Shown piece by piece: positions 12,514 through 56,397 of a stretch of DNA of 64,000 nt. The translations under genes were made by a program, and so were the position numbers. Numbering within the stretch: position 1 is the stretch's first letter; the number at the start of each line of letters is the position of its first letter. Where the stretch lies: the IMG/VR virus record IMGVR_UViG_3300045988_103846, one strand, 5' to 3'. A model generated the notes under the pieces. That model was not told the DNA's origin. It made no database searches and saw only the letters and a list, made by a program, of their open reading frames with translations. Source of the DNA: a virus.

Positions 12514-12589
12514 GGAGAGTCTAGGGGATTCGAACCCCTATCTGGTGATCTCTATATCAGCCCGCCCTACCATTTAAGCGAAGACTCTC
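12514..12589 (-). tRNA. tRNA-like gene with a non-canonical anticodon arm (anticodon not assignable)
   Basis: The minus strand reads GAGAGTCTTCGCTTAAATGGTAGGGCGGGCTGATATAGAGATCACCAGATAGGGGTTCGAATCCCCTAGACTCTCC. Acceptor stem is perfect (AGAGTCT/AGACTCT). U8, A14, G18G19 and A21 are present. D stem is GCTT/GGGC. T arm is perfect: AGGGG-TTCGAAT-CCCCT. The anticodon region folds only as TGAT/ATCA with a 6-nt loop, or as a mismatched 5-bp stem with an 8-nt loop. No CCA is encoded. Confidence 0.6.
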
Positions 12590-27815: not shown

Positions 27816-30620
27816 CTAGCTAATTAGGGCAATCCATGATTCACCAGTGGCAGCACTAACATCCATCGTACAATCATTATTCAAGGATCCAAAATCCCAG
27901 CCCCCATAAGATTGATCACCATCCTCATCAAACGGAGCTAACCACTTATCACCAGCAACCACAGTATCACTATCAGGACTCGTACCTACTGAGAATCCAA
28001 AACTCATATTAGCTGAAATAGGCTCTGCGGTTAAATTTATATGTCCATCATGGGCTTCTGAAATTGTGGTATAAACACCATCATTGTTAATCAAGAATAT
28101 CTCCCATCCATCAAAGATTATATAATTAGTTGACTGAGTCAACGGTATAACTCGATAGAAGCTTATATTCTTAATTATATTACCGTCTGAATCGGTTGAA
28201 GTGTTAATGTTGTCAAAAGGTTGAATAGGGATCACCGGAGCATAGCATATCTCGCTTCCTGCATGGTAATAAAGACGTAAGAATGCTTTTATACCATAAT
28301 CTGTAGGATCTTGTGAAAAGGCCACAGGGAATGTGCCCGTAAGGGTCATCTTACGAGTAGAAAGCATGTTCACACCGTAAGTCTCTGAGAGCTCTATAGA
28401 GTTCGTATTTCCTGAAGCTGCAAAGTCTAACAGCTGATTCTTCAGATTAGAAGTAATAAGGTCATACTCATAGAACACAAAAGTAGTATTGGTAAAGTGA
28501 GTCTTAGAAGTGGATCCAAACACTGGAACTACGTTAGCTTGGGTACTTCCATTCTTAACCCAGAAGTAGAGATAGTTGTAACCCTGCCAATCACCTTCAT
28601 TAAGCTTACTAGATAGCTGTTCTATAACAGAGTGTGCAACTGATAGACCAAGATCACTGTCATTTACATAATCAGTTGTCCCTAATTCAATATGATCTTC
28701 ATTAAACTCATTGAGAGTTCCAAATGGTGATACACAAATGGTGATATCGCCTGAAGAGACATTCAACTTACCACAAACTTCATGAGTAATAGTGAGAGTG
28801 TGAGCTTGTTCAGCAGAAGCATCCTGTGTACAATTGCAAGTGGCAATCACATCTCCAGTAGAAGCTTTAAGAACGAGATCAAAGGTTCTCTCTGAAGAAG
28901 TGTTAACATCCGGTGCCAGAGACAAGCTCTTATTTCCGGTACCACTTATTGGTAGCGAGTTGCCACTTACTAAACTGTTGCCAACGTAAGAAGGACCATC
29001 GATAGTCCAACCAACATTATCTGGATCAGAGATATTCAAATCCAAGCCTGATGGGGATAGATCACTTTGACCATTGCTGTCAAAGCGGAATGTAGTAGGA
29101 ACATTCCAAGAAGGACTAACTAAAGATTCCTGATGGTAGGATATAGATGCTGTAGTTGACTTGTTCCCCTCGCCCGTTATCTTCATTTCAATAGTATCAT
29201 CTCTGCTTAGGCCCGTGATGTTCTTACCAACAGTGGCCTTGAGATTAAGCTCATCAATGGTTACCAAACTTGGTACTGATGTGAACTCATAGGTAAAATC
29301 AGTTATAGTTCTAGTAGCACCAGAAGTATAGGTGGCTGTCTGGTTCGGGGATACCTTAGCGGCTATATCTACATCCCCACCAGTCTTTGGAATGTTTACA
29401 GTTGTAGATGTGGCATTAACTGATGAATAGGTTACTTGGTTGGCCTGTTGGTACACATCAATGCTTTGGGTTACTTTAGAGCCATTCCAGGTTATAGTGG
29501 CTGTAACTGTGTCAAGTTTTGTTCTGGCCTTAACAGTTGAACCAAGATTTGAGCCGTTTACCGTTTTAGACAACGTAATGATAACATCTGAGGATGTTAT
29601 AGAAAGAGTATCGGATTCTCCAGAAGAATAATCAATCTTGCCTGAAGCTGAGATAAAGTTTGGTGAGTCAGCTGAGCCACCAGATGCTGGGATATCGTCT
29701 AATGAAACAGAAGCAGAGCTTAAAGTGTAGGTGGCCTTATTAGAACCCTGTTTTACAGAGTCGGTGGAAGTTAAGGTCTGACCATTAACGATAATGGTTA
29801 TCTTAATAAGGGCTAACTTATAAGAATCAGTGATGTTCTTTCCCAGAGAATCCATAACTAGCTCTCCTGTTTGCTCGTTTAAGGTCCAGTTATAAGGGGA
29901 ACCAGGAGGATCAGTATAATAAGTGTATTTTACAGAATGAGAAGAATTAGATTGTGTAAGAGTTCCACCACCGGATGTTTTGCCATTCCATCCCCAAGGG
30001 ATTGAAAATTCGTAAGAAGGGGTAGCAACTCCTCCTTCTGCGCCGATATTCCAATTAGAATATCTCATATTGACACTTGCAGTGCCGTAGGTCTTCTCGC
30101 CTTCTGTCTGGGTAATAGTGATGATTTTAGAAGATACCCCAGGATCACCCGAATCTCGAAGCCTGAAAGTGATGTCCCTAGAGTTCTCTGTCTGATTCTC
30201 CGCCACGTCAAAAGAGATCTCAAAAGTGTAAGAGCTAGATGCTCCAGGATCACCCGATATCTGATGAGAGGCGTTCCCGTCCCAGGAATAGGCCGTCCCG
30301 TTTACCTTAAGGGCAAAGTTTGAAAGTAAAGAAGAATTAGTGAGATTAGTCAGCTTCAGAGACGGCGAGTTGCTAGTGCCAGTGATTTTCACGGTGCCAC
30401 CAAGAGCTGTGACAAAATAATAAGCCTTGTCTACTGTGATAAACTCACCAGCTCCAATCTGTGAGAGAACTACAGAATCATAGGCCCCACCAGAGGTAAC
30501 ACCTTTGATAGAGCCTGATCTGCTTGACCTTCCAGTATGGGAGCTTGCTTTTAATGATCTTGTTCCTGAGCCACTTCCTGTAGACCCAGATACTACAGTG
30601 ATCCAACTTGGTTTTGCCAT
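27816..30620 (-). CDS. BACON/Ig-like-repeat virion surface protein (934 aa)
   Basis: Starts MAKPSWITVVSGSTGSGSGT...HTGRSSRSGSIKG...VVLSQIGAGEFITV (BACON-like). Repeated module ends ITITQTEGEKTYG, IDVYQQANQVTYS, ISYHQESL. S/T/G-rich. Confidence 0.65.
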   Translation of the reverse strand: MAKPSWITVVSGSTGSGSGTRSLKASSHTGRSSRSGSIKGVTSGGAYDSVVLSQIGAGEFITVDKAYYFVTALGGTVKITGTSNSPSLKLTNLTNSSLLSNFALKVNGTAYSWDGNASHQISGDPGASSSYTFEISFDVAENQTENSRDITFRLRDSGDPGVSSKIITITQTEGEKTYGTASVNMRYSNWNIGAEGGVATPSYEFSIPWGWNGKTSGGGTLTQSNSSHSVKYTYYTDPPGSPYNWTLNEQTGELVMDSLGKNITDSYKLALIKITIIVNGQTLTSTDSVKQGSNKATYTLSSASVSLDDIPASGGSADSPNFISASGKIDYSSGESDTLSITSSDVIITLSKTVNGSNLGSTVKARTKLDTVTATITWNGSKVTQSIDVYQQANQVTYSSVNATSTTVNIPKTGGDVDIAAKVSPNQTATYTSGATRTITDFTYEFTSVPSLVTIDELNLKATVGKNITGLSRDDTIEMKITGEGNKSTTASISYHQESLVSPSWNVPTTFRFDSNGQSDLSPSGLDLNISDPDNVGWTIDGPSYVGNSLVSGNSLPISGTGNKSLSLAPDVNTSSERTFDLVLKASTGDVIATCNCTQDASAEQAHTLTITHEVCGKLNVSSGDITICVSPFGTLNEFNEDHIELGTTDYVNDSDLGLSVAHSVIEQLSSKLNEGDWQGYNYLYFWVKNGSTQANVVPVFGSTSKTHFTNTTFVFYEYDLITSNLKNQLLDFAASGNTNSIELSETYGVNMLSTRKMTLTGTFPVAFSQDPTDYGIKAFLRLYYHAGSEICYAPVIPIQPFDNINTSTDSDGNIIKNISFYRVIPLTQSTNYIIFDGWEIFLINNDGVYTTISEAHDGHINLTAEPISANMSFGFSVGTSPDSDTVVAGDKWLAPFDEDGDQSYGGWDFGSLNNDCTMDVSAATGESWIALIS

Positions 30621-30654
30621 GATGATTCTGTTTTTAGAAAAAATTAGAAGATGA

Positions 30655-30672
30655 GAGGGGTTTCGCCCCCTC
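30655..30672 (-). terminator. GC-rich hairpin between the two BACON-repeat genes (weak terminator candidate)
   Basis: GAGGGG-TTTCGC-CCCCTC. On the minus strand the T-run begins about 10 nt after the stem. Confidence 0.35.
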
Positions 30673-30688
30673 CCACCTTATGACAGTC

Positions 30689-32341
30689 TTATTCAAGAGT
30701 CCAGCTGTCGTTTGACTCTATAGTGAGCTCCTTGGATTCTCCGGCAGCCACAAAGGTGAGGCTCTCTGGAGTGAGGTTGATGTAGGAAGAAGACCCCTGC
30801 TGACTAAACGTGAAGTCTCTGGTGGCAGTCTTGCTGCCCTCGCCGGTGACAGTAACTGTCACTACAAAGCCTCCACGAGGCTCCGTAGTAGGGTTGGCTC
30901 CAACAGAGACGATGCCGTCAGAAGAGAGAGCAAACCCAGTTGCGGCGGTCTTGACCTTTGGACTGAGATCAAAGACAACCGCAGCAGTAGTGCTGGCCTC
31001 TGTTCTGGTGGCGCCAGAAGTATAGGTGACAGTCTGCTTAGCTCCAACATTGGAGTTGTCGGTCATGTTGCGGCTTTGGGTACCATCTGCCTTGAGTGAA
31101 ATCTCTGTGGCAACGGCAGAGTCAAAGGTGATGTCACCGTAAGTGGCGGTATTGGCTGCCTGATATACATCCACAGAAGCGGACTTGGTAGCTGTAGTCT
31201 TCCAGGTAACTGTAGCAGTGAGAGTGCCTTTCTTAGTTCTGTTGGTAACAGTAGTACCAAGTGAAGCAGCTGAAACTCCCTCACTAAATGTGATGGTACA
31301 ATCATCAGAGCCGTTGGTGAGGGCAACATCACTGGTGACTGAACCTGAGGTATAGGTTTTGGAACCCTTGGCTGTAACGGTGGCAGAAGATACTGAACCT
31401 CCGGAAGCTGGGATGTCAGCTGGAGCAGCCAGTTTCACATCTGTAACGGCATAGGTTACAGAGTTAGCCTGCTGGCTAACTGAAACTTCCTTGGAAGCGG
31501 ACTTGCCGTTAGCCGTGAGGGTGATGGTCACTGTTCCTGAAATTACCGCACCAACAGTAGTGCCACGGGAAGCCGCAGTCACCTGACCCGTAGCTGTGGC
31601 AAGGGTAAGGGCTTCTGGCCAGCCCGTCTTAGTTGCATAAGCAACAGTGCCACCGGTAGTAATGGTGCCACCCCCCGAGGTAACACCGTTCCATCCCCAA
31701 GGCTGGGAGAAGGAAACAGAAGGAGCATCAACTGTACCACCGGCAGCAGGGATTTGCTGATAAGTGCCCACGGTGAGGGTAACAGCACCATAAGACTTAA
31801 CACCCTTGGCCTGAGTGATGGTGATAGCTTCTGTGGTCACATCGCCGTTACCATTCTGAAGCTTGATCTCCAATGTTCTGGCAGCTTCTGTCTTGTTCTC
31901 TGGGATCTTGACGTCGATAGTGAAGGTGAATTCTGCATTCTTACCCGGATCGTCATCAATGCCCGTGTCAGTCTTTCCATCCCAAGAATCATCATTGACT
32001 GCGTTGACTTGGATCTTGTAGGCTGCCCCAGGGATAATCTTGCCCGTAGTCTCGGCCACCTTGATGTTTGCCGTATTTGCGGTACCAGTGATCTGAATGG
32101 TGTCAGAACCGTCAGAGTTGCTACCTTTTGCAGCGGCATTGTAAGTCTTGGTCGGCACATTAATGAACTCAGCCTTACCGGCCTGAGAAACTGAAGTAGT
32201 GTCGGTTGCACCTCCAGTTGTTTTAGCAGTGATTGTTCCACCTCTCTGCTGACGACCCGTGTACTCACTGGCGGTAACAGTTGTGGAATCGTTCATGGAA
32301 CCTGAGCTCTTGCCCAGTTTGATCCAACTCGGTTTTGCCAT
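30689..32341 (-). CDS. BACON/Ig-like-repeat virion surface protein (550 aa)
   Basis: Starts MAKPSWIKLGKSSGS...YTGRQQRGGTITA...SVSQAGKAEFINV. Module ends ITITQAKGVKSYG, VSVSQQANSVTYA, VDVYQAANTATYG, FTFSQQGSSSY. Ends ...KELTIESNDSWTLE. T/A/G-rich and GC-rich relative to its neighbours. Confidence 0.65.
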   Translation of the reverse strand: MAKPSWIKLGKSSGSMNDSTTVTASEYTGRQQRGGTITAKTTGGATDTTSVSQAGKAEFINVPTKTYNAAAKGSNSDGSDTIQITGTANTANIKVAETTGKIIPGAAYKIQVNAVNDDSWDGKTDTGIDDDPGKNAEFTFTIDVKIPENKTEAARTLEIKLQNGNGDVTTEAITITQAKGVKSYGAVTLTVGTYQQIPAAGGTVDAPSVSFSQPWGWNGVTSGGGTITTGGTVAYATKTGWPEALTLATATGQVTAASRGTTVGAVISGTVTITLTANGKSASKEVSVSQQANSVTYAVTDVKLAAPADIPASGGSVSSATVTAKGSKTYTSGSVTSDVALTNGSDDCTITFSEGVSAASLGTTVTNRTKKGTLTATVTWKTTATKSASVDVYQAANTATYGDITFDSAVATEISLKADGTQSRNMTDNSNVGAKQTVTYTSGATRTEASTTAAVVFDLSPKVKTAATGFALSSDGIVSVGANPTTEPRGGFVVTVTVTGEGSKTATRDFTFSQQGSSSYINLTPESLTFVAAGESKELTIESNDSWTLE

Positions 32342-32371
32342 ACTTTTTAATGGTTTTAGAAAGTTAATAAA

Positions 32372-32551
32372 TTAACCTTTGTTAGGTGTTTCGTCGTTGT
32401 ATTTAACTCCAAGAGTCCATGGAGCATTAGACTCTATAGTTAGATCTTTAGTGCTCTCTGGGTCCGGGAATTCTAAGTTCTCTGGAACAAGTTTGATAAA
32501 CTCATCCAGAGGTTGATGCTTGTGCATCATCAGAGCTCTAAATACACTCAT
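32372..32551 (-). CDS. 59-aa ORF carrying a BACON-like N-terminal half module
   Basis: Not in the ORF track (below the cutoff). MSVFRALMMHKHQPLDEFIKLVPENLEFPDPESTKDLTIESNAPWTLGVKYNDETPNKG. Its last part is 16/27 identical to the C-terminus of the 550-aa protein. It is in frame with the 550-aa ORF, separated by one TAA and nine sense codons. Confidence 0.5.
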   Translation of the reverse strand: MSVFRALMMHKHQPLDEFIKLVPENLEFPDPESTKDLTIESNAPWTLGVKYNDETPNKG

Positions 32552-32554
32552 AGC

Positions 32555-32911
32555 TTAGGCTTTTGGAAATTCTCCCCAGACAGCCAGAGACCCGATCACT
32601 GAGATCACATATATGTGATCAGCTTGAGTGACAGGAGCCTCACCGTTCATCCATTTGATGGTGGAGTCACCCACGATAGCATGGATGGTTGCTCCCACTT
32701 CGATAGTATAGACAGTCTCTTTGTGAGATGCGCTTGCCTGAACAATGTAATCGTTCTCGAGCTCTGGGACATCTACGTAGGTGACACCATCTAGTCTATC
32801 CAGTACTTGTTTTACGTCCTCATTCTTATATTTTACCTGATCTGAGTTTGTGACATATTGGCCCTCTAATGGTCGTCTTAGTTCGCCATAGATCTTGATA
32901 TAATCTGCCAT
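32555..32911 (-). CDS. hypothetical protein (downstream of tail fibre; possible fibre accessory)
   Basis: 118-aa ORF with ATG start. No motif recognised. Confidence 0.6.
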   Translation of the reverse strand: MADYIKIYGELRRPLEGQYVTNSDQVKYKNEDVKQVLDRLDGVTYVDVPELENDYIVQASASHKETVYTIEVGATIHAIVGDSTIKWMNGEAPVTQADHIYVISVIGSLAVWGEFPKA

Positions 32912-38713: not shown

Positions 38714-39583
38714 TTAATCAAAACTGTTAGTGTTATCGAAGCTGTTGTCGAAAGAACCCTTTTTACCAGGCTGAGGAATATCTCCGAGGATTACCTTTGG
38801 GGAGCCATCATCGTATCTTCCCACTTTGCAATGGATAGGCAGATATTTCTCTATGAGAGCAGCTATGATCTCTTTAGCTTCTTCCAACTTAGCCTCACCG
38901 AGAAGACGTTCCCAGATATCGGAGTCTAGAATAGATACCTTTACTAAGAAATAGAGGCAAGACACGCAATTGCCCTCAGCATAAGGGGCACGAATTTCCT
39001 CATCACCACGAGAATATACATTGATAGACTCATCTCCATCACTATTGGTGTAAGTAGCTAGAACTAAGTGATCATAGACAGGTATGCTCTCATCACCTTC
39101 ACCAATAGTACCACCATTGACAGTCTCTATTAGAGTAATCTTCATACCATAGAATCTACCCAAGATAGTGTAGAAATCAACTGTACCCCGGATCTTGTAT
39201 AGAGAGATGGCATATCTCAGAAGCTCCCTTGGATTGACTTTTGGGAACCAAAAGCTAGTGAGCCATTCCCTGAGATCATCCTTATTGTAAGGTTTATTCT
39301 GGATGATGAGGCCGTAAGCATAAGGTATCTCCCCGAGAAACTCCCAAAGATAATTGAGAAACAGATCAGGAGTCTTATCAAAGTCAATCAAGTCTAGAAT
39401 ATTATCTAGACCCGGTTGGTTAGACTCATCATCTGTTACATGAGCATCGAAATACTCTGCACAAACTCTCATGAGTCTCTGCAGAATACCCCTGCCATCT
39501 TTATCCTTATAAGTATCTTGGTCATGATACCAGAAAGGAAAGAATCGAGGAAAGATATAGTCTTTGAATCTAAACTTGCTCAT
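38714..39583 (-). CDS. baseplate protein, P2 gpI / Mu gp48-like by position
   Basis: 289 aa, immediately after the J-like gene with a 14-nt overlap. Called by synteny only. Confidence 0.45.
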   Translation of the reverse strand: MSKFRFKDYIFPRFFPFWYHDQDTYKDKDGRGILQRLMRVCAEYFDAHVTDDESNQPGLDNILDLIDFDKTPDLFLNYLWEFLGEIPYAYGLIIQNKPYNKDDLREWLTSFWFPKVNPRELLRYAISLYKIRGTVDFYTILGRFYGMKITLIETVNGGTIGEGDESIPVYDHLVLATYTNSDGDESINVYSRGDEEIRAPYAEGNCVSCLYFLVKVSILDSDIWERLLGEAKLEEAKEIIAALIEKYLPIHCKVGRYDDGSPKVILGDIPQPGKKGSFDNSFDNTNSFD

Positions 39584-41312
39584 GAATGTTCAGTATAAGG
39601 GAATCAGATGTGTTCTTGAAGATTGGTATGGTCTTATAAGAAGAATCACTCTTTGATGCCAGATTAGTATTCATCTGACCGATGTAAAAGTAATACCTAT
39701 CCCCAGGATTATACATACCGAAAGCTATAGTGATAGTGAAGTCGAACTCTGTTAGCTTGATCCTGAGGGCTTCCCCATAAGTGCCTTTGAAAGTTCGGCT
39801 TCCCACTGTGAGAGTGTACCCCTTTTCCAGAATCCCAATGTAAGCATCGGTGAATTCAGAATCAGAAGTATAACTGTTCTGAACGAATGAAGTTATCTTT
39901 AGATTTGGGGAAGCTTTGTCACTAGACTCTGAAGATACCAAAATAGGCTGAGGGAGGATGTACATCCTCTTGATGTTAAGATAGTCTACAGTAGATAGAT
40001 TATCTATGAGACTGTAGACATCTGACACCCTTACAGCCCTGCCCAGCTCGGCATTATTATAGCCATAGGACTCTTCTAGAGCTTTAACTATCTGATCCTT
40101 GATGTCTAAGGAAGCAAATGAAGTTCTTCCGAATACTTCTAAGTCTAGATATATGTAAGCGGGATATACCGGAAGAACGGAGAGAGTAGTGGTTATTACC
40201 TTAGACTTATTGAGCTGAGCCTCTACGGCATCAATCAAAGCCCTAGATGCTTCAACTCCACCGTTGTCTGGGGTTATGTATACTCTAACCTCTTTTCCGC
40301 AAATGTATTCTACATAAGCCTTGTTCACTCCCCCGACCAGCTTAGCCATAGCCTCAAAGTCTTCTTTAGTTATGGCTACTCCCAAAGTCTTTACTGAAAG
40401 AGGGACATGGTCTTTGAGCATAGAGAAGTTTTCATAATCAGAACCTCCTGATGCTGGATTGAAATTAGTGACAACTATATTAGACAGATCTGCACCAGAT
40501 ATTGAAGGTAGGGAACTGAAAGAGCCACTAGCGATATTACCACTAGATCCATAGGTGACTTCATATTCACCCTCAATAGATCCACCAAGTTCTGGAACAG
40601 CCCCGAATTTACCGTCCCCGAATACCACTAGTGGAATGAGATCACCTCCGAGCTCAACTTTATAGACCTTGTCATCAGGTCCAGAATAAGCAAAAGTGTC
40701 TACCAGTGTCCAGGTCTCCCCATCTATAGTGAGAATCATAGAACCCTCTACGTAGAACTTGCCGTCAGGAATACCCCTGAGAGCAATAGTAATGTTTGGA
40801 TCTATGATCTGACCAAAAGATATCTTAGAGGAGTCACCAACTTTCTCTTTCTGAACTACGGGTACCTTGATGGACTTAGGATATAAAGTCTTATCCCAGA
40901 TTATACCGTCTTTTGCTACTACTGTCCAGACTTTACCATCATCGGAGGTGAAAGTAGTTCCAGCTGGAATGTAGATTGAAGACTTCAGATCAGAGCCGTC
41001 TTTAGTGTAGAGAGTTAAATCTACTGAAGCAGGTATAGCACTCTTTACATGATAGTCTACCAACTTAGCATGTTTGAAGAGAGAGCTATATCTTCTAGCG
41101 GAGACAAAGAATGTCTCTCTAGCCATATTATCTATGTAGTAATGTATTACCTCAGCAATACCTGCTAGAATAGATATAATGATGATAAAAATATTACCCT
41201 CACTGTAATCTGTGATCTCAGGAACATTATTTCTCAGAGAGATCTTAAGTTGTTCCTTAATACTGTTGAAAGATCTCTGGTAGGGGTTTACCCAAGGATT
41301 TTTAGTAGGCAT
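39570..41312 (-). CDS. baseplate wedge protein, gpJ / T4 gp6-like
   Basis: About 580 aa, follows the gp25/W-like gene with an overlap. Start set to the ATG at 41312 (MPTKNPWVNPYQ). Confidence 0.55.
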   Translation of the reverse strand: MPTKNPWVNPYQRSFNSIKEQLKISLRNNVPEITDYSEGNIFIIIISILAGIAEVIHYYIDNMARETFFVSARRYSSLFKHAKLVDYHVKSAIPASVDLTLYTKDGSDLKSSIYIPAGTTFTSDDGKVWTVVAKDGIIWDKTLYPKSIKVPVVQKEKVGDSSKISFGQIIDPNITIALRGIPDGKFYVEGSMILTIDGETWTLVDTFAYSGPDDKVYKVELGGDLIPLVVFGDGKFGAVPELGGSIEGEYEVTYGSSGNIASGSFSSLPSISGADLSNIVVTNFNPASGGSDYENFSMLKDHVPLSVKTLGVAITKEDFEAMAKLVGGVNKAYVEYICGKEVRVYITPDNGGVEASRALIDAVEAQLNKSKVITTTLSVLPVYPAYIYLDLEVFGRTSFASLDIKDQIVKALEESYGYNNAELGRAVRVSDVYSLIDNLSTVDYLNIKRMYILPQPILVSSESSDKASPNLKITSFVQNSYTSDSEFTDAYIGILEKGYTLTVGSRTFKGTYGEALRIKLTEFDFTITIAFGMYNPGDRYYFYIGQMNTNLASKSDSSYKTIPIFKNTSDSLILNIHEQV

Positions 41313-41766
41313 AAGAAGTATTAGTTGAATGGTCATACTGAAGCACTGCTTCTCCCTGGTTATCCAGGTCTGTAGCAAACTTCACTTGAATAAAAAGCTG
41401 GGAGTCTTGACGAAAACTAGATACCTCTATGGCCTTGATCCTAGATTCCCACTGCTGTATAGAAGTCTTGACAAATTCTCTGGTCATGTGTTCAAGAAGA
41501 ACAGTATTCTGTTCCTCTATACATTCCCAGAGACGAGAACCAAAGTTCTCTTGTCTAAACCTCTGTCCTATCTGATAGATGAATAGGGCTGTGAGATTAT
41601 TCTTGATGAGAATCAGCCCAGACTTAGGGTACCATCCCACCTTCTTGATCTTAGAGCCATCGGGCTGTTCTATGTACTCGTCATTGCCCTGAGCATCTTT
41701 TGGTGTAGTCAATTGGATAGGGAATATCATTCCAGATCCAAAGGTAGACAGTTGTTTAAGGTTCAT
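41302..41766 (-). CDS. baseplate wedge protein, gp25/gpW-like
   Basis: 154 aa. FGSGMIFPIQL near the N-terminus (G-x-G-x-x-FP pattern of the GPW_gp25 family). Position fits. Confidence 0.55.
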   Translation of the reverse strand: MNLKQLSTFGSGMIFPIQLTTPKDAQGNDEYIEQPDGSKIKKVGWYPKSGLILIKNNLTALFIYQIGQRFRQENFGSRLWECIEEQNTVLLEHMTREFVKTSIQQWESRIKAIEVSSFRQDSQLFIQVKFATDLDNQGEAVLQYDHSTNTSYAY

Positions 41767-46207: not shown

Positions 46208-48268
46208 TTATCGAACGTTTTGTGATAAGTCACTATCTGTGACCTCTCTGGTTTGACCATCAGGGGTAGTTACCCGGATATTCACATTCTTGCCCTGTCT
46301 CATCTGATCCAACATTTGCTGGAGAATGTTGATGATACCAACAAGCTCTTCCCTCTCCCTAGCCTTTCTAGCTTCTTCTGCAGCTTGTCTTTTAGCTTCA
46401 CTCTCAGCATCATATTTAGCAGATAGACTATTCACTGAAGCCGTGTTAGAATCTTGGGCAGAGGTGTTAGCTTCAGTAGCTTTCTTGTTTCCACTCAAAG
46501 CCCCGAAAATAAGAGGCAAGAAGGTGAGAATACCTGTGATAGCAAATCCCCAAGGACCAGTGAAGAATCCCAACAACTTACTAGCTATTTTACCGATTCC
46601 AGCCCCGAAAGCCCCAATCTTACCCAAACCCTTGCCAAGAACTCCAGCAGTCATAGCCCCAGCAGACATCCCTAAAGCTTTTTTCTTTACTGAATCTGCT
46701 ACAGCTTTACTAACAAATTTACCCTTATCATCTCTAACTACCATTCTACCAGATTTGCTCATAGAGGCTGAATAACCGGGTACAGAACCCATAGCTAAAG
46801 CAGCCCAGCCAGGATTGCCCATGACACCAAGCTTCTGCTGGATATTGATACCGTTAAGGATTCTCTGATATTGCTTAGCAGAAATGGTAGCAGCTTTCCA
46901 CCCCGCAACCCACACAGCAAATAGGTTTCTACTACCAACTATAGAGTCAGTTTTCCACATCAACCACTTAGATCGAATGATCATAAAGGCTGAGCTAATA
47001 CCTACAAGAGTACCAGAGATAAGAGCTAATCCAGCAATAAATTTGCCAAGACCCGTACCTAAACCCTTTCTAAGAACATCAAACACTTTAGTAAGAGTCT
47101 TGAATACCGGGATCAAAACTCCAGAAGCTGCTTCTGTAAAGCTAGCTTTTAAGTTCTGCCAGGTAGACTTCATAGCATTAAACTGACCAGCAACGGTGGC
47201 CATTCTTTGATCTACGATAGATTTAGCATATCCCTCCTCAGTAGACCCTACTTTATCATATAGGCTTCTAAACCCCTCTAGATCTCTCATCAAGGCCATA
47301 GCAGCACGATTACCTCTGACTCCAAAGATACCAGTAGTAAATAAGTTCATCTCAGTCGGATCTAGGTCTTTAGTCACTAACTGAATCGTCTTCATGATAG
47401 AATATAGATCCTTAAGGTGACCATCTGCCGTAGTGAGATCTTCTTTCGTAAGACCCACAGATTCAAGAAACTTATGACCCTTATAGCTTGGATCTGAGAT
47501 AGACTTGTTAAGATACCTGGCCATGTTTGCCAAAGCAGTACCGGCCATAGAACCCTGAATACCCATATTACCAAGAGTACCTATGGCTGCAGATACTTCA
47601 GGCAGAGTATAACCCAAATTGGTCATATCTGCTGCAGCATACCTAATAGAAGCAGCCAAGTCTTGCATAGATATATTGGCAGAAAGAGTAGCCTTGGTCA
47701 TGACATCTCCCACCCAGTTAGCAGCTTTCTCACCTGATAACTGGAAGGTTCTCATCACATTAGTGATGACGTCAGCAGCTCCACCCTTTCCACCAAGGGC
47801 CATACCAGTAGCTCCTGCAGCATAAGTGGCACCTTTGATCATACCCTTGATCTCCTCTGCGGTGTTACCAGCCATAGCCAGGTATTTCATACCCGAAGCA
47901 ATGTCTTGAGAACTGAACATGGTTTGAGCACCCAAGTCCATAGCTACATCTTTGAGAGCTGTCATTTGAACTGTAGTAGCTTCAGTGATAGCCTCAACGG
48001 TGGTCATGGTATCTACAAACTCTATTCCATAGGATATCATATCGGCTACTCCAGCAGCCATAGCTCCGAAAGCCGCTAACCCATATTTCCCTATCTGACC
48101 TGCGGCAATGAGATTAGACTGCACAGCAGATCTAGCATCCATCTGGAGCTTACGTATTTGAGCTGAAGCTTGTCCAGCTTGATTAGAAAATCTGTCATGT
48201 AGTACTAGAGCAATTCCGATCTCCATCATTCCTGATTTCGGAACCCCAGCATTAAATCCCAGTGCCAT
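46208..48268 (-). CDS. tail tape measure protein
   Basis: 686 aa, A/G/M-rich helical and hydrophobic segments with a C-terminal coiled coil. Directly downstream of the frameshifted chaperone. Confidence 0.75.
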   Translation of the reverse strand: MALGFNAGVPKSGMMEIGIALVLHDRFSNQAGQASAQIRKLQMDARSAVQSNLIAAGQIGKYGLAAFGAMAAGVADMISYGIEFVDTMTTVEAITEATTVQMTALKDVAMDLGAQTMFSSQDIASGMKYLAMAGNTAEEIKGMIKGATYAAGATGMALGGKGGAADVITNVMRTFQLSGEKAANWVGDVMTKATLSANISMQDLAASIRYAAADMTNLGYTLPEVSAAIGTLGNMGIQGSMAGTALANMARYLNKSISDPSYKGHKFLESVGLTKEDLTTADGHLKDLYSIMKTIQLVTKDLDPTEMNLFTTGIFGVRGNRAAMALMRDLEGFRSLYDKVGSTEEGYAKSIVDQRMATVAGQFNAMKSTWQNLKASFTEAASGVLIPVFKTLTKVFDVLRKGLGTGLGKFIAGLALISGTLVGISSAFMIIRSKWLMWKTDSIVGSRNLFAVWVAGWKAATISAKQYQRILNGINIQQKLGVMGNPGWAALAMGSVPGYSASMSKSGRMVVRDDKGKFVSKAVADSVKKKALGMSAGAMTAGVLGKGLGKIGAFGAGIGKIASKLLGFFTGPWGFAITGILTFLPLIFGALSGNKKATEANTSAQDSNTASVNSLSAKYDAESEAKRQAAEEARKAREREELVGIINILQQMLDQMRQGKNVNIRVTTPDGQTREVTDSDLSQNVR

Positions 48269-53454: not shown

Positions 53455-53964
53455 TTAACAACGGTTACAATTACACTTTCCAGCTTTATACTGGTCTAAT
53501 ATAGCCTTAGACTCTTCTGGACTCATTCTCTGTAGAATGATGAAGAAGAGAAGTGCTTTGTCATTACTTTGAGCTACCTGGGTATCTCCTGAAGGCTGGT
53601 ACACATGTCCATTAAGGATGAATCTGTCTTCAGCCCAGTTAAACCTCCAGTAGCCATATTCGTCAAGAAAACCCCGGGATCTTAGTAGATCAGCCGAGAT
53701 ATAAAGTACACAGTCTGTAGCATCAAGCTCTCCAGAGATATAGTTCTGCTGGTTATTGCTTGGCCAAGTCTTGATGTAGTTGTAGTGGAAAAGACCCTCT
53801 AGATCATGTTTAACATAGGTTTCATCTGAGTCTTCTCCCCACTCTGACATGAGAGGAACTTTCTCTAGCCATACAAAAGGCTGTTTGCCAGCATCGTTAT
53901 TGATAAACTTGTTGACAATGTTCTCATATCGTCTCCAAGCTTTGGAAGATACAAAAGAACCCAT
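53455..53964 (-). CDS. hypothetical head-tail protein
   Basis: 169-aa ORF with ATG start, coupled to its neighbours. Confidence 0.55.
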   Translation of the reverse strand: MGSFVSSKAWRRYENIVNKFINNDAGKQPFVWLEKVPLMSEWGEDSDETYVKHDLEGLFHYNYIKTWPSNNQQNYISGELDATDCVLYISADLLRSRGFLDEYGYWRFNWAEDRFILNGHVYQPSGDTQVAQSNDKALLFFIILQRMSPEESKAILDQYKAGKCNCNRC

Positions 53965-54821
53965 TACTTAATCACTTCAAGAGGATCTGGGCCTCCCAAG
54001 AAAGTATTGTGTCTTCGATTCTCTACCCTTGGCACTACTACCCGTTTACTTGGTCTGCTGCATATAGGGAGATATATCTCTAACCTCTCAGCCAGCATAC
54101 AGATATTAGCTTTCAAAAGGTCTATGAGACCATCTGGTTTCATAGCTTTAATGATATTGGCAGAATAATCTGAGCTAGCTGTAGCTGAATCGAAGTACTC
54201 CACTTCGGTTGGTCCAGTGGTTATATGTTTAACATTTCCAGCCCTATCACCACCATTCTCTTCTGAAGAGTCTGGGGTATATTCAGAACTACTGCTCTTA
54301 TTGCTGGAATACACATAATTAGATAGAGCCTGCACCATCTGATTTACTTTCAGAACCATGTAGTCGTATGCAGCCAATTCCATGATTAATTGGTTCTCTA
54401 GAGCTTCATAATAAAGCTCATTAGAATATTCTTCTACGGGAACGTCATGATTCACTAGAGGCTGTAAATACAGCTGCCATTTCTGAATAAATTTTCTCTT
54501 TTGGGAGAAATCGAGCTCCCCGAATATATCAGAGGGAAGATAGGCATCTATCAAATGGTAAATGGTATCAGACAGGGTTGTGTGAACCTTATCTGATACC
54601 AAGATGTCTTGAATGCAGCTACCCACCATCTGACCATCTGCAAAGTACCTGAGACTTACAGTGTATCTTCTGGACTGCTCATAAGTATGTACGGGCTCCC
54701 TTTCGGTAGAGGTAGAACCATCCCCGAAGTCCCAGAGAAGAGTGAAGTCTTCTACATCCCGGGAGTAGTTCAAGAAAGTTACAGTCAGCTCCTTACAGGA
54801 GAAGGTGAATTCTGCATTCAT
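53964..54821 (-). CDS. PKD-domain-containing virion protein
   Basis: N-terminus FTFSCKELTVTFLNYSRDVEDFTLLWDFGDGSTSTEREPVHTYEQSRRYTVSLRY fits the PKD signature WDFGDG...HTY...Y.V.L. Confidence 0.65.
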   Translation of the reverse strand: MNAEFTFSCKELTVTFLNYSRDVEDFTLLWDFGDGSTSTEREPVHTYEQSRRYTVSLRYFADGQMVGSCIQDILVSDKVHTTLSDTIYHLIDAYLPSDIFGELDFSQKRKFIQKWQLYLQPLVNHDVPVEEYSNELYYEALENQLIMELAAYDYMVLKVNQMVQALSNYVYSSNKSSSSEYTPDSSEENGGDRAGNVKHITTGPTEVEYFDSATASSDYSANIIKAMKPDGLIDLLKANICMLAERLEIYLPICSRPSKRVVVPRVENRRHNTFLGGPDPLEVIK

Positions 54822-55284: not shown

Positions 55285-56397
55285 TTAGCCCTCCATATTA
55301 TACTGGATGTAAGAATCCTTCTCCAAGTACTCTGGGAATGGGTTCTCAGTGAGGTTCTTGCTGCCGTCCAGAAGGATAGCGGCATCCTGATACATCTTGG
55401 AGAATCCGGTGGTCAGAGTTGCATAGGTGGCCTCTGTCTGGTTAGATACGATCCTCTCTGACTCGAGCATGAGGCTCTGAGCATTGAGCTTGATCATAGC
55501 AAAGCGAGGGTCTACCAGCAAGATCTGATTCTCATCTACACCCGTATGGATGAAGCAGTTTGCCTGGTTCGGAACTGGGGTCTTGAGATTGAGAGTAGCC
55601 TGAGTGGTACCCTGCTGACGAAGCTTGAACTCAGGGAGATCCAGGAGCTCAACTGCCTTGTCTTCTCCAGCGATGATATCCTGGAAGCTTCTTCCGAGAC
55701 GAGCACCACGGATCCAGAGACGAAGGAGATCTTTGTACTGGATGCCAGCAGTAGTGTCATTCACTCCGATAACTGGAGAAGACTCAGAGCCATCCTTGGC
55801 GTTACCGTTAGTGAGAACGTCCAGAGCAAGGCTGTCAAGAGCATAGCCAAGCTGAACACCGAAGTCACGGAGGAAGATACCGAGAACATCAAGAGAAACG
55901 TAGTTCTTCACCTCATCAGTGAGCTTGAATCCGCGTCCAATCTTGAAGAGGTTCACAGACTTCTGACCGAAGCTAACGGAGCCAACTGGAATGGTCTCAG
56001 CCTCATTGATCCTTGAAGGAGCAGCCTCTGCCGGGTTGATGATAGGCATGATAGCGGACAACCCATTGATTCCCTGCTCACTAGCAATGAGATTCGGGTA
56101 GAATGGTGCCTCCCTGATGCCGAGATCGATAGCAGAACGGATAATCTCCGGAACAATCCAACGAATGGACTGATCAGGCATCGTGAAGATGTTCTGCATT
56201 GTGGTGGACTTAAGGTTGACTCCCAGCTTGTCGCAGTAGTCATCCATAGACATGTTGTACTTCTCCTGAATAAACTCAGAGAATGAGATGTCGGTCGGCC
56301 TCATCTGAGCACCGCCGGCACGATAACCATCAAGCTGCTGAATATTGGAAGGAAGCTCCTGGAGCAGTTCCTGAGCAGTGAGTGTTTTTTCTGCCAT
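55285..56397 (-). CDS. major capsid protein (by position, size and codon bias)
   Basis: 370 aa, follows the protease/scaffold and decoration-like genes. It has the strongest C-ending codon bias in the window (stop-free antisense frames). Confidence 0.6.
   Translation of the reverse strand: MAEKTLTAQELLQELPSNIQQLDGYRAGGAQMRPTDISFSEFIQEKYNMSMDDYCDKLGVNLKSTTMQNIFTMPDQSIRWIVPEIIRSAIDLGIREAPFYPNLIASEQGINGLSAIMPIINPAEAAPSRINEAETIPVGSVSFGQKSVNLFKIGRGFKLTDEVKNYVSLDVLGIFLRDFGVQLGYALDSLALDVLTNGNAKDGSESSPVIGVNDTTAGIQYKDLLRLWIRGARLGRSFQDIIAGEDKAVELLDLPEFKLRQQGTTQATLNLKTPVPNQANCFIHTGVDENQILLVDPRFAMIKLNAQSLMLESERIVSNQTEATYATLTTGFSKMYQDAAILLDGSKNLTENPFPEYLEKDSYIQYNMEG

What the first reader, a model, noticed from the sequence alone, without database searches (positions are those of the whole stretch)
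27816..32551. Twice-repeated 'split BACON' junction: each surface-protein gene starts with the second half of a BACON-like module and the preceding ORF ends with the first half
Seen in sequence, protein ends:
- The 59-aa ORF (32372-32551) ends LVPENLEFPDPESTKDLTIESNAPWTLGVKYNDETPNKG*.
- The 550-aa ORF ends LTPESLTFVAAGESKELTIESNDSWTLE*, which is 16/27 identical to the 59-aa tail.
- The 934-aa ORF ends similarly: ...DVSAATGESWIALIS*.

Seen in sequence, the ORFs that follow:
- The first two tails are followed, after 30 nt and 68 nt, by ORFs starting MAKPSWI(K/T).
- Those ORFs continue G-S-G ... (Y/H)TGR..R.G.I ... GGA.D ... SQ.G..EFI.V.
- The DNA junctions are homologous too: TGGACTCTTG ... TTTCTAAAA(C/A)CA ... 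ATGGCAAAACC(G/A)AGTTGGATCA.

Read across each junction, tail plus head reproduce the order of conserved positions of a BACON domain (..SN..W.. then W[IL]..G.G..(N/T)G..R.G.I..V.Q.G). The domain therefore looks cut by a stop, a spacer and a new start, twice in tandem.

Frame relationships:
- Junction 1 is in frame: TAA TTT ATT AAC TTT CTA AAA CCA TTA AAA AGT ATG.
- Junction 2 is out of frame, has stops in the connecting frames, and carries a GC hairpin (30655-30672).

Possible interpretations (inference):
- A cassette array generated and reshuffled by unequal recombination at the conserved junction, diversifying glycan-binding virion decorations.
- Low-level TAA readthrough fusing the 59-aa ORF to the 550-aa protein.
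- Trans complementation of half-modules, chaining consecutive proteins on the virion.
Basis: partly seen in the sequence, partly recalled or inferred. Interest (0 to 1): 0.7.

Follow-up and report, generated by a model that had tools for sequence, protein, structure and literature searches.

The report
Split BACON domain joins fibre proteins
Three neighbouring phage genes are cut in the middle of an immunoglobulin-like (BACON) domain, so each protein ends with the first half and the next starts with the second half; this conserved arrangement most likely lets separately made fibre proteins snap together end to end.

Summary
A 59-aa ORF and the 550-aa protein end with the first ~35 residues of a BACON domain ("tail"). 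The 550-aa and 934-aa proteins begin at Met1 with the remaining ~57 residues ("head").

- **One domain when joined.** Head alone matches Pfam BACON_2 positions 42-93 only; tail+head matches 2-93 (45.9 vs 30.9 bits). A joined profile aligns gap-free across the junction to solved BACON domains (3ZMR, 8VA4). Reversed, unrelated or mis-ordered controls do not.
- **Conserved cut.** In 50 related loci all 103 strong tails are C-terminal and all 96 strong heads N-terminal.
- **Protein classes.** Tail-only (a conserved ~50-aa protein; crassvirus dimeric head-fibre proteins), head+tail connectors (200-830 aa) and head-only distal proteins all exist.
- **Supporting points.** Head and tail are the most conserved parts of the 550-aa family. 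One contig carries a natural in-frame fusion (…NWEFD-MAKPSWI…).
- **Readthrough refuted.** Spacer length and frame vary, and terminator-like hairpins are common.

Best explanation (0.6): non-covalent trans-complementation of a split Ig-like domain joins fibre subunits into base→connector→variable distal protein. No structural or experimental test was possible. The window phage is a baseplate-bearing, Flandersviridae-like phage, not a crassvirus.

The parts
32372..32551 (-). Small 59-aa gene, a tail-only 'base/adaptor' protein. It has a conserved N-terminal peptide (MSVFRALMM...) followed by the first half of a BACON domain.
   Evidence: My tail HMM, built without any small ORFs, hits it at E 7e-7. 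The gene is present in all 31 close relatives, and also in crassvirus loci L068, L033, L035, L037, L070-L079 and L084. pN/pS is 0.32 in its own frame against 0.70 and 1.35 in the other two frames. The family comprises 73 clusters, all 46-81 aa long and never fused to another protein.
32408..32497 (-). Half-A ('tail') of the split BACON domain within the 59-aa protein, residues 19-48 (IKLVPENLEF...ESNAPWTL). A short extra segment (GVKYND...) follows it.
   Evidence: The tail HMM aligns to residues 19-48. Joined to the 550 head, it gives a BACON_2 match over profile positions 7-93 at 36.8 bits.
32342..32371 (-). Junction 1: a 30-nt spacer between the TAA of the small gene and the ATG of the 550-aa gene.
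   Evidence: Read directly from the sequence. It is in frame in this window, but the same spacer is 46, 47 or 48 nt in relatives, so the frame is not conserved.
32171..32341 (-). Half-B ('head') of the split BACON domain at the N-terminus of the 550-aa protein, residues 1-57 (MAKPSWIKLGKSSGS...SVSQAG).
   Evidence: Pfam BACON_2 matches profile positions 42-93 of 94 only. The AF2 model shows four strands here, at residues 7-9, 22-24, 33-40 and 46-53.
30689..32341 (-). 550-aa 'connector' protein: head, then four complete Ig-like/BACON-like domains, then tail.
   Evidence: The search returned 2870 homologues; the ~50%-identical ones among the best 120 listed keep head and tail. The AF2 model has mean pLDDT 87 and is all-beta. 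Foldseek matches cadherin, RTX-adhesin and S-layer strings of Ig-like beads.
30692..30799 (-). Half-A ('tail') at the C-terminus of the 550-aa protein, residues 515-550 (QGSSSYINLTPESLTFVAAGESKELTIESNDSWTLE).
   Evidence: Tail HMM E 3e-23. Joined to a head it restores BACON_2 coverage to positions 2-93 at 45.9 bits. Identity to ~50% homologues is 64% here, against 40-51% for the internal domains.
30621..30688 (-). Junction 2: a 68-nt spacer holding a terminator-like GC hairpin plus T-run (30679-30648).
   Evidence: Comparable hairpins sit in the equivalent junctions of L068, L033, L036 and L073. In L024-type relatives, homology with the window continues through this spacer to ATGGCA and then stops.
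30432..30620 (-). Half-B ('head') at the N-terminus of the 934-aa protein, residues 1-63 (MAKPSWITVVSGSTGSGSG...).
   Evidence: Head HMM E 1e-17. Pfam BACON matches profile positions 8-59 of 61.
27816..30620 (-). 934-aa head-only distal protein with a mosaic, variable C-terminal part.
   Evidence: It has no tail. In relatives, residues 1-602 are conserved and are followed by alternative C-terminal modules, giving proteins of 701, 794, 921 or 934 aa.
32555..32911 (-). 118-aa gene immediately upstream. Its stop lies 3 nt before the start of the small gene (TAA GCT ATG). It is a possible attachment partner of the small protein.
   Evidence: The arrangement is conserved in all close relatives. Homologous 147/148-aa genes, or a 494-aa protein with the same C-terminal domain, precede the small gene in crassvirus loci.

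Best explanation
The region encodes a set of fibre subunits that are made as separate polypeptides. They are joined end to end by rebuilding a split BACON (Ig-like beta-sandwich) domain at each joint.

**How the joint is built**
- The C-terminal ~35 residues of one protein supply the first strands of the domain, ending at the SNxxW motif.
- The N-terminal ~57 residues of the next protein supply the remaining four strands, starting at (M)AKPxW-I/L.
- The chain break lies in the turn between the two conserved tryptophans.

**Proposed chain in this window**
- Base: the 59-aa tail-only adaptor, translationally coupled to the 118-aa gene upstream.
- Connector: the 550-aa protein, with head and tail.
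- Distal end: the 934-aa head-only protein, whose C-terminal part varies between strains and is presumably the binding end.

**Shown here**
- Tail plus head make one BACON domain at the sequence-profile level.
- The cut position is conserved.
- The three protein classes exist, and tail-bearing genes are followed by head-bearing genes.
- Both halves are under purifying selection.
- The products are separate proteins, not a readthrough fusion.

**Inferred, not shown**
- That the halves physically dock.
- Which tail pairs with which head.
- That the assembly is a tail or baseplate fibre in this phage. It sits after the baseplate and tail-fibre genes. In crassviruses it would be an extension of the dimeric head fibre.
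For: **Domain continuity**
- Heads alone match BACON_2 profile positions 42-93 only.
- True tail+head joins match positions 2-93/94: 45.9 bits for 550 tail + 550 head, 40.1 for HFD tail + 555 head, 36.5 for 555 tail + 172 head.
- Controls do not reach full-length coverage.
- The joined profile aligns gap-free over 8VA4 and 3ZMR.
- The two Trp are 8 residues apart in the join, or 7 if Met is removed. Unsplit repeats show 7 (447 cases) or 8 (101 cases).

**Conservation of the cut**
- The ~50%-identical homologues among the 120 listed start M-A-K-P-x-W and end SNDSWTL[ES]*.
- In 50 loci, 103 tails are at C-termini and 96 heads at N-termini. The only strong internal pair is a fusion.
- Of the best 148 representatives, 25 clusters at 50% identity have the head exactly at residue 1.
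- A RefSeq crassvirus of another family carries the same split, in Kahucivirus cr127_1 gp35/gp36.

**Need for a partner in trans**
- Tail-only proteins exist: the small protein, and Head_fiber_dimeric proteins.
- Head-only proteins of 82 to 1018 aa also exist.

**Gene order**
- Every HFD gene with a tail is followed by a head gene.
- L084 has three consecutive tail-to-head junctions.

**Rosetta-stone fusion**
- P0200/L080 reads HFD...SNSNWEFD-MAKPSWITL... as one continuous ORF at the DNA level.

**Selection**
- Head and tail are 62% and 64% identical to ~50% homologues, against 40-51% for the complete domains.
- The small ORF has pN/pS 0.32.

**Module exchange keeps the head**
Against: - There is no structural or experimental evidence of docking.
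- AF2 gave the C-terminal tail the same local confidence with and without the head: blocks 73/82/83/69 against 88/88/84/71. The models therefore say nothing about pairing.
- Tails and heads do not always balance.
  - Several crassvirus loci have one more tail than heads: L033, L035, L037, L073-77, L080 and L081.
  - One locus, L083, has one more head than tails.
  - So some half-domains may stay unpaired, or pair with partners I did not see.
- In L070-72 and L078 the genome order is small | head-only | connector. Adjacency alone therefore does not give the order in the chain.
- The natural fusion rests on a single contig from one sample.
Confidence: 0.6

Rival explanations
1. Complementation occurs, but within one chain or between identical chains. 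The 550-aa connector would close on itself, form reciprocal dimers, or polymerise head to tail. The two orphans, the 59-aa tail and the 934-aa head, would then pair with each other.
For: The 550-aa protein carries both halves. The window has exactly two tails and two heads, so either pairing scheme balances. In L070-72 and L078 the small gene is followed directly by a head-only gene, and the connector has no tail-bearing or head-bearing neighbour. In L035 the connector is the only head-bearing protein.
Against: The natural fusion joins a different protein (HFD) to a connector head. L036 lacks the small gene but has HFD-tail | connector | head protein. L084 has HFD→832→~506→999 in tandem. Deleting the head in silico did not lower AF2 confidence in the tail, so the model gives no sign of a cis contact.
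Confidence: 0.15
2. This is a gene-fission relic with no docking. A long multi-BACON fibre gene was broken into separate genes, for example to tune expression. The half-domains would be left as disordered or differently folded ends, and the proteins would assemble by other contacts or not at all.
For: Unpaired tails seem to be tolerated in several genomes. AF2 models the tail as a confident hairpin on its own. Ordinary unsplit multi-BACON proteins are common relatives.
Against: Head and tail are the most conserved segments of the family. The cut is at the same profile position (41/42) in proteins with otherwise unrelated bodies and in different phage families. A dedicated ~50-aa protein consisting of little more than a tail is under purifying selection and is widespread. 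When a new distal gene is swapped in, it brings a head with it.
Confidence: 0.12
3. The conserved sequences at the gene ends serve mainly as DNA-level recombination linkers for swapping whole fibre genes between phages. On this view the protein-level half-domain pattern is a by-product.
For: The block is shared between a Flandersviridae-like phage and crassviruses at 72% protein identity. One clade has a breakpoint exactly at the ATG-GCA of the head.
Against: At that breakpoint the incoming head is not similar at the DNA level, so homology in the head did not mediate the exchange. Conservation is at the protein level: pN/pS is 0.32, and motifs are kept at under 50% identity with different codons. 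Most variation in the distal gene has breakpoints inside the gene.
Confidence: 0.05
4. Translational recoding produces fused polyproteins across the junctions. Candidates are TAA readthrough at junction 1, or frameshifting or ribosome bypass at junction 2.
For: Junction 1 in this window is in frame with no second stop. The 118-aa ORF is also in frame with the 59-aa ORF. Junction 2 has a stop followed by a hairpin, superficially like T4 gene 60.
Against: - In close relatives junction 1 is 46, 47 or 48 nt long, in other frames or with stops.
- Distant junctions run from about 2 to about 150 nt with unrelated sequence.
- Every head starts with ATG, and the Met is conserved.
- A GAA-to-GAA hop at junction 2 would land out of frame (read from the sequence).
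- No suppressor tRNA is present; the only tRNA is tRNA-Ile(TAT).
- The small protein family is always called as a 46-81-aa stand-alone protein.
Confidence: 0.02

Closest known systems
BACON domain (Pfam PF13004 / PF19190 'viral BACON'; solved in BoGH5A, PDB 3ZMR, and in a GH16 enzyme, 8VA4)
   Same: It has the same sequence family and the same order of conserved positions. The joined halves align over the whole solved domain.
   Different: Known BACON domains are continuous within one chain. Here the domain is divided between the C-terminus of one gene product and the N-terminus of another, always at the same loop.
BACON tandem repeats of crAssphage gp64 and other gut phages (de Jonge et al. 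2019, PMC6949934)
   Same: These are gut-phage structural proteins built of BACON/Ig-like beads. They lie next to tail or head genes and have poorly conserved distal ends.
   Different: That study counted whole domains within ORFs. Term searches of its text found no mention of split or truncated domains.
Donor-strand complementation and exchange in chaperone-usher pili, and strand exchange in Bacteroidia type V pili (established knowledge, not tested here)
   Same: A subunit with an incomplete Ig-like fold is completed by a segment of the neighbouring subunit. This gives a head-to-tail non-covalent fibre with initiator, polymerising and terminator subunit types.
   Different: Here a half-domain of about three strands is donated, not a single strand. 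The donor is C-terminal and the acceptor N-terminal. No chaperone or usher was detected, and assembly would take place in the cytoplasm. Docking itself is unproven.
Dimeric head fibre (HFD) gp29 of PhiCrAss001 (Bayfield et al. 2023, PMC10172136; Pfam PF25641)
   Same: In crassvirus relatives the protein just upstream of the connector has this N-terminal capsid-binding domain.
   Different: According to the paper, gp29 ends in a complete beta-sandwich. These relatives instead end in a half BACON. The window phage shows no HFD homologue within the 64 kb.
Modular phage fibres joined through conserved adaptor ends, such as T4 gp34-gp37 or the branched receptor-binding proteins of G7C/CBA120-like phages (own knowledge)
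   Same: A conserved attachment end is combined with an exchangeable distal receptor-binding part, and separate genes are arranged in order.
   Different: To my knowledge, the joints in those systems are whole domains or trimeric interfaces, not two halves of one Ig-like domain.
Engineered split-domain pairs such as SpyTag/SpyCatcher (a split CnaB2 Ig-like domain) and split GFP (own knowledge)
   Same: Fragments of a beta-rich domain reassemble in trans.
   Different: Those are man-made, and SpyTag also forms an isopeptide bond. The case here would be a natural, evolutionarily maintained split used for virion assembly.

Membership tests
BACON domain (PF19190 BACON_2 / PF13004 BACON) | A profile match above the curated cut-off that covers the whole domain | tested here: met
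   This is met only for the joined halves: tail+head scores 45.9 bits over profile positions 2-93 of 94, against a cut-off of 25. The 550 head alone scores 30.9 bits but covers only positions 42-93. The tail alone gives no hit.
BACON domain (PF19190 BACON_2 / PF13004 BACON) | Similarity to a solved BACON beta-sandwich across the full domain | tested here: met
   The joined profile aligns to 8VA4_A residues 35-121 (E 1.6e-9) and 3ZMR_A residues 15-91 (E 5.7e-9), with no gap at the junction.
BACON domain (PF19190 BACON_2 / PF13004 BACON) | The two halves actually fold together into one sandwich | not testable with these tools
The AF2 monomer models show two strands in the tail and four in the head, but give no contact information.
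Donor-strand-complementation fibres (chaperone-usher pili or type V pili) | A subunit with an incomplete Ig-like fold that needs strands from a neighbour | tested here: met
   Heads lack profile positions 1-41 and tails lack positions 42-94. Tail-only and head-only proteins both exist.
Donor-strand-complementation fibres (chaperone-usher pili or type V pili) | A dedicated periplasmic chaperone and outer-membrane usher, or proteolytic activation as in type V pili | tested here: not met
   The neighbouring ORFs that were scanned gave no such Pfam family. These are phage cytoplasmic proteins. The system is therefore not a member of this family, only an analogue.
Crassvirus dimeric head fibre (PF25641) | An N-terminal Head_fiber_dimeric capsid-binding domain | tested here: not met
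   tblastn with four HFD proteins found no N-terminal match in the window. The feature is met in the relatives L033, L036, L037, L080 and L084.
Programmed readthrough, frameshift or bypass fusion | A conserved frame relation or recoding signal across the junction | tested here: not met
   Spacer lengths are 30, 46, 47 or 48 nt in close relatives and about 2 to 150 nt in distant ones. Frames differ and stops intervene.
Crassvirales (identity of the window phage) | A crass-type major capsid protein and other crassvirus hallmark proteins | tested here: not met
   The window encodes Phage_capsid_4, Baseplate_J, a tape-measure protein, PolA, RecA and DnaB. By contrast, L068 (72% relative) has Crass_capsid at E 1e-163, and L033 also has a Crass_capsid hit.
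'Flandersviridae' (Benler et al. 2021, PMC8008677) | A genome of about 85 kb, a structural block with baseplate and sheath, a replication module with DnaB and PolA, and BACON-bearing structural genes | tested here: inconclusive
   Gene content fits. The longest contig carrying the identical three proteins is 83,995 bp. I did not look for a sheath protein or build a TerL or PolA phylogeny.

The most novel reading that the evidence does not exclude
Gut phages of at least two unrelated virion types share a portable 'split-domain connector kit'. The types are crassviruses and a baseplate-bearing, Flandersviridae-like phage. Fibres would be built from separately encoded subunits that lock together by reconstituting an Ig-like BACON domain from two halves. 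The kit has tail-only bases (including a dedicated ~50-aa adaptor), head+tail connectors of variable length, and exchangeable head-only distal proteins. The same distal modules could then be hung on capsid head fibres or on tail structures, and fibre length and tip could be changed by swapping or adding genes. A further possibility is that connectors polymerise head to tail, giving fibres of variable length.
Probability: 0.5. Interest if true: 0.8.

Novelty: new variant of a known kind. Interest (0 to 1): 0.7.

Why it matters
**Assembly principle.** If the halves do dock, this would be a naturally split Ig-like domain used as the joint between virion fibre subunits. I found no such joint described for phages in the papers I could search. 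It would be the phage counterpart of donor-strand complementation in pili.

**Biology it would explain.**
- Very abundant gut phages could mix and match host- or mucus-binding tips without touching the anchor.
- The same block could move between crassviruses and unrelated tailed phages.
- Annotation pipelines see only 'partial BACON' hypothetical proteins and overlook a conserved 50-aa gene.

**Practical use.**
- It gives a rule for predicting which fibre proteins assemble together in uncultured phages: find C-terminal SNxxW-T/S-x ends and N-terminal MAKPxW starts.
- It offers a natural, small, non-covalent protein-ligation pair that could be exploited for engineering.

Tried and rejected
- **In-silico deletion test.** I ran AF2 on the full 550-aa protein and on a head-deleted version. 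Tail confidence did not change, so the result is inconclusive and is not used as support.
- **Foldseek of the 550-aa model against the PDB.** It returned only generic strings of Ig-like or cadherin-like beads.
- **PDB sequence searches.** The whole 550-aa family profile and the 934-aa protein gave no hits.
- **Deposited phage genomes.** Megablast of the region found nothing. tblastn with the 550-aa protein found only a weak hit, which nevertheless led to Kahucivirus gp35/gp36.
- **PHROGs.** No family matched the 59-, 550-, 934- or 118-aa proteins.
- **Natural fusions of the small protein.** I looked for fusions to its neighbours and found none among 73 clusters.
- **Ribosome bypass like T4 gene 60.** Rejected, because a GAA-to-GAA landing is out of frame and the spacers are not conserved.
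- **A tail on the 934-aa protein.** Rejected.
- **Who pairs with whom.** I tried to infer this from residue patterns at tail ends and head starts across loci. There was no clear signal and too few independent lineages.
- **Literature.** Searches on split BACON or Ig-like domains in phage fibres found nothing relevant.

Full report
**What is there.** On the minus strand the window carries five consecutive genes:
- a 118-aa gene (32555-32911);
- a 59-aa gene (32372-32551), which starts 3 nt after the stop of the 118-aa gene;
- a 30-nt spacer;
- a 550-aa gene (30689-32341);
- a 68-nt spacer with a terminator-like hairpin and T-run (30679-30648);
- a 934-aa gene (27816-30620).

The two tails share 15 of 27 residues, not 16.

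**Do tail and head make one BACON domain?** They do at the level of sequence profiles.
- Pfam BACON_2 (94 positions) matches the 550 head only over positions 42-93, at 30.9 bits.
- It matches the head-bearing proteins from other loci that were scanned, apart from Kahucivirus gp36, over 42-92/93 as well.
- Joining a tail in front of a head extends the match to positions 2-93/94 and raises the score:
  - 550 tail + 550 head, 45.9 bits;
  - crassvirus head-fibre tail + connector head, 40.1 bits;
  - connector tail + distal head, 36.5 bits;
  - small protein + connector head, 33.8-36.8 bits.
- A reversed tail, an unrelated 36-aa piece of the same protein, or head+tail in the wrong order do not do this. 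They give 28-34 bits with coverage 42-93 or 23-93.
- A profile of 15 tail+head joins (A1) aligns, with no gap at the join, over the whole BACON domains of 8VA4_A (E 1.6e-9) and 3ZMR_A (E 5.7e-9).
- The profile of the entire 550-aa family finds nothing in the PDB.
- The join leaves 8 residues between the two conserved tryptophans, or 7 if the initiator Met is removed. Removal is expected for Met-Ala/Pro/Thr/Ser/Val, but that is inference. Unsplit BACON repeats among the relatives have 7 (447 cases) or 8 (101 cases).
- In the AF2 model the tail contributes two strands and the head four. The neighbouring complete domain has seven.

**Is this a local accident?** It is not.
- The search for homologues of the 550-aa protein returned 2870 hits. 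The ~50%-identical ones among the 120 listed start M-A-K-P-x-W-I/V and end ...SNDSWTL(E/S)*.
- I built HMMs of the head (62 aa) and the tail (36 aa) and scanned 50 related loci on both strands.
  - 103 tail hits lie at C-termini and 96 head hits lie at N-termini.
  - The only strong internal pair is a natural fusion, described below.
  - The weak internal head hits are ordinary unsplit BACON-like domains.
- I searched a two-sequence head profile against 1.84 billion representatives. Among the best 148, 25 clusters have the head exactly at residue 1.
  - At least 13 of these also end in a tail; they are connectors of 201-832 aa.
  - The other complete ones are head-only proteins of 801-1018 aa (several are short fragments).
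  - The remaining 123 are ordinary multi-BACON proteins whose internal repeats match from profile position 4-6 onward.
- The RefSeq crassvirus Kahucivirus cr127_1 (Crevaviridae) has the same pair. gp35 is a 70-aa tail-only protein and gp36 is a 211-aa head+tail protein. gp36 is annotated only as 'lipocalin-like... BACON binding domain'.

**Grammar of the system.** Three classes of protein recur.
- *Bases with a tail only.*
  - One is a ~50-aa protein that follows a conserved 118/147/148-aa gene.
  - It is present in the window, in its 31 close relatives and in most of the crassvirus loci examined.
  - The other, in many crassviruses, is a protein with the Head_fiber_dimeric domain of PhiCrAss001 gp29. 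According to Bayfield et al. (PMC10172136) that domain anchors a dimeric fibre in the winged-hexon pocket of the capsid.
- *Connectors with head and tail.* The 550-aa family is in nearly all the loci that were mapped; shorter 200-440-aa forms also occur.
- *Distal proteins with a head only.* Sizes seen are 82, 172, 222, 314, 361, 463, 588, 868, 934 and 999 aa.

Each head-fibre gene with a tail in the mapped loci is followed directly by a head-bearing gene. L084 has three tail-to-head junctions in a row: HFD → 832 aa → about 506 aa → 999 aa. The caller's start for the third gene is wrong there, and an upstream ATG gives MANNWLSI.... Tail-only and head-only proteins cannot complete their half-domain in cis, so any completion must be intermolecular.

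**Independent support.**
- *Fusion.* One contig (L080, protein P0200) carries a head-fibre protein and a connector fused in frame exactly at the cut...SINSNSNWEFD-MAKPSWITLDK..., DNA TGGGAATTTGATATGGCAAAACCAAGTTGG. This is a Rosetta-stone type of indication that these two ends belong together. The retained Met suggests the fusion arose from the split state.
- *Conservation.* Against ~50%-identical homologues, head and tail are 62% and 64% identical. The four complete internal domains are 40-51% identical.
- *The small gene is real.* pN/pS is 0.32 in frame against 0.70 and 1.35 out of frame, and is the same in the N-terminal peptide and in the tail. The family has 73 clusters at 90% identity, all 46-81 aa and none fused. 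Its conserved N-terminal peptide (MS-x-FR-x-L...) is unexplained and may be its own anchor.
- *Swapping keeps the head.* In one clade, DNA identity with the window runs through the 550 tail, spacer, hairpin and ATG-GCA. It then breaks into an unrelated gene that nevertheless begins MALPDWLRISPV..., which is a head.

**What it is not.**
- Readthrough or another recoding event is excluded as a general mechanism.
  - The same junction 1 is 46, 47, 48 or 30 nt long in close relatives, in different frames or with stops.
  - Junctions in distant relatives run from about 2 to about 150 nt, are unrelated in sequence, and often contain GC hairpins followed by T-runs.
  - Every head begins at an ATG.
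  - The only tRNA in the window is tRNA-Ile(TAT).
- A gene-60-like hop at junction 2 would land out of frame.

**Context.** The window phage is not a crassvirus.
- It encodes Baseplate_J, a tape-measure protein, a Phage_capsid_4 capsid protein, a terminase, PolA, RecA and DnaB-like and other helicases.
- Its capsid protein is 64% identical to that of 'Phage DP SC_6_H4_2017'.
- The identical three proteins occur on a contig of 83,995 bp.
- This fits the description of 'Flandersviridae' in PMC8008677, but I did not test membership by phylogeny.
- The block from the fibre genes through the split-BACON genes to DUF7841 and DUF5675 is shared with genuine crassviruses. L068, at 72% identity, has Crass_capsid at E 1e-163.
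- The kit has therefore moved between virion types.
- In the window it follows the baseplate and tail-fibre genes (a 1328-aa protein with tail-fibre PHROGs). It is thus more likely a tail or baseplate appendage here, and an extension of the head fibre where an HFD base is present. Both placements are inference.

**Most likely mechanism, and its limits.** I favour non-covalent trans-complementation of the split domain as the joint between base, connector and distal protein (0.6).

Unresolved points:
- Docking itself is unproven.
- AF2 gave the tail the same confidence with and without the head, which neither supports nor excludes a cis contact.
- Tails outnumber heads by one in several genomes, and heads outnumber tails in one.
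- In some genomes the gene order is small | head-only | connector, so pairing specificity remains open. The possibilities are small protein → connector, small protein → distal protein, or connector → connector.
- A self-pairing or polymerising connector is the main rival (0.15).
- A fission relic with no docking is the next rival (0.12).

**Novelty.** BACON-bearing phage proteins are known, and so is completion of an incomplete Ig fold by a neighbouring subunit in bacterial pili. My full-text searches and the two key papers turned up no description of a domain split between consecutive phage genes and used as a fibre joint. I therefore rate this as a new variant of a known kind. The evidence is well supported at the sequence level and untested structurally.

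Noticed in passing
window 38714-61369 (- strand) and 2848-23897: The window is a baseplate- and tape-measure-bearing phage. It encodes Baseplate_J at 39570-41378, a tape-measure protein at 46208-48268, Phage_capsid_4 at 55285-56397 and a terminase at 59882-61369. It also has a PolA/RecA/DnaB/SbcC replication module. That makes it Flandersviridae-like, not a crassvirus. Even so, about 9 kb (fibre genes through DUF7841 and DUF5675) is shared with crassviruses.
   Followed up: partly
L024 8084-14012 (also L020, L022, L023, L026-L029): In one clade of close relatives everything after the 550-aa gene is replaced. The replacement is an 82-aa head-only ORF, a stretch of about 60% GC with different genes, an amidase and a tyrosine-recombinase-like gene. 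Some identical 550-aa or small proteins sit on contigs of 0.5-3.4 Mb, which suggests integrated copies or chimeric assemblies.
   Followed up: partly
window 32549-32560: The 118-aa ORF and the 59-aa ORF are in the same frame, separated only by TAA GCT (…GEFPKA* A M…). This arrangement is conserved in all 31 close relatives. In crassviruses the two genes overlap (ATGA). It looks like translational coupling, and the role of the 118/148-aa protein is unknown.
   Followed up: partly
L031 5932-6000 (= L068 8932-8991): In the 72% crassvirus relative, the spacer before the connector gene is a five-fold tandem repeat of a 12-nt unit (TTTTTGTTTATA). This could be a variable-length promoter or leader region.
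   Followed up: no
window 27816-28815 (C-terminal third of the 934-aa protein): The distal protein is mosaic among near-identical phages. Residues 1-602 are conserved and are followed by alternative C-terminal modules, giving proteins of 701, 794, 921 or 934 aa. This is the pattern expected of a receptor-binding tip. No Pfam family matches the tip.
   Followed up: partly
L080 6001-8763: This is a natural in-frame fusion of a Head_fiber_dimeric protein with a connector, exactly at the split point (…NWEFD-MAKPSWI…). It rests on a single contig from one sample (SRR33454274), and the read-level support was not checked.
   Followed up: partly
L083 5844-6715: A 201-aa connector and an 85-aa head-only protein lie in a different context, next to Dam methylase, SAM synthetase and HD-domain genes. 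No tail-bearing gene lies upstream. The split-BACON proteins therefore also occur outside the conserved fibre block.
   Followed up: no
window 53964-54821 (- strand): A 285-aa protein with PKD domains lies near the capsid gene. It may be a separate Ig-like capsid decoration protein.
   Followed up: no
window 12514-12588 (- strand): A single tRNA-Ile with anticodon TAT sits next to the PolA gene.
   Followed up: no
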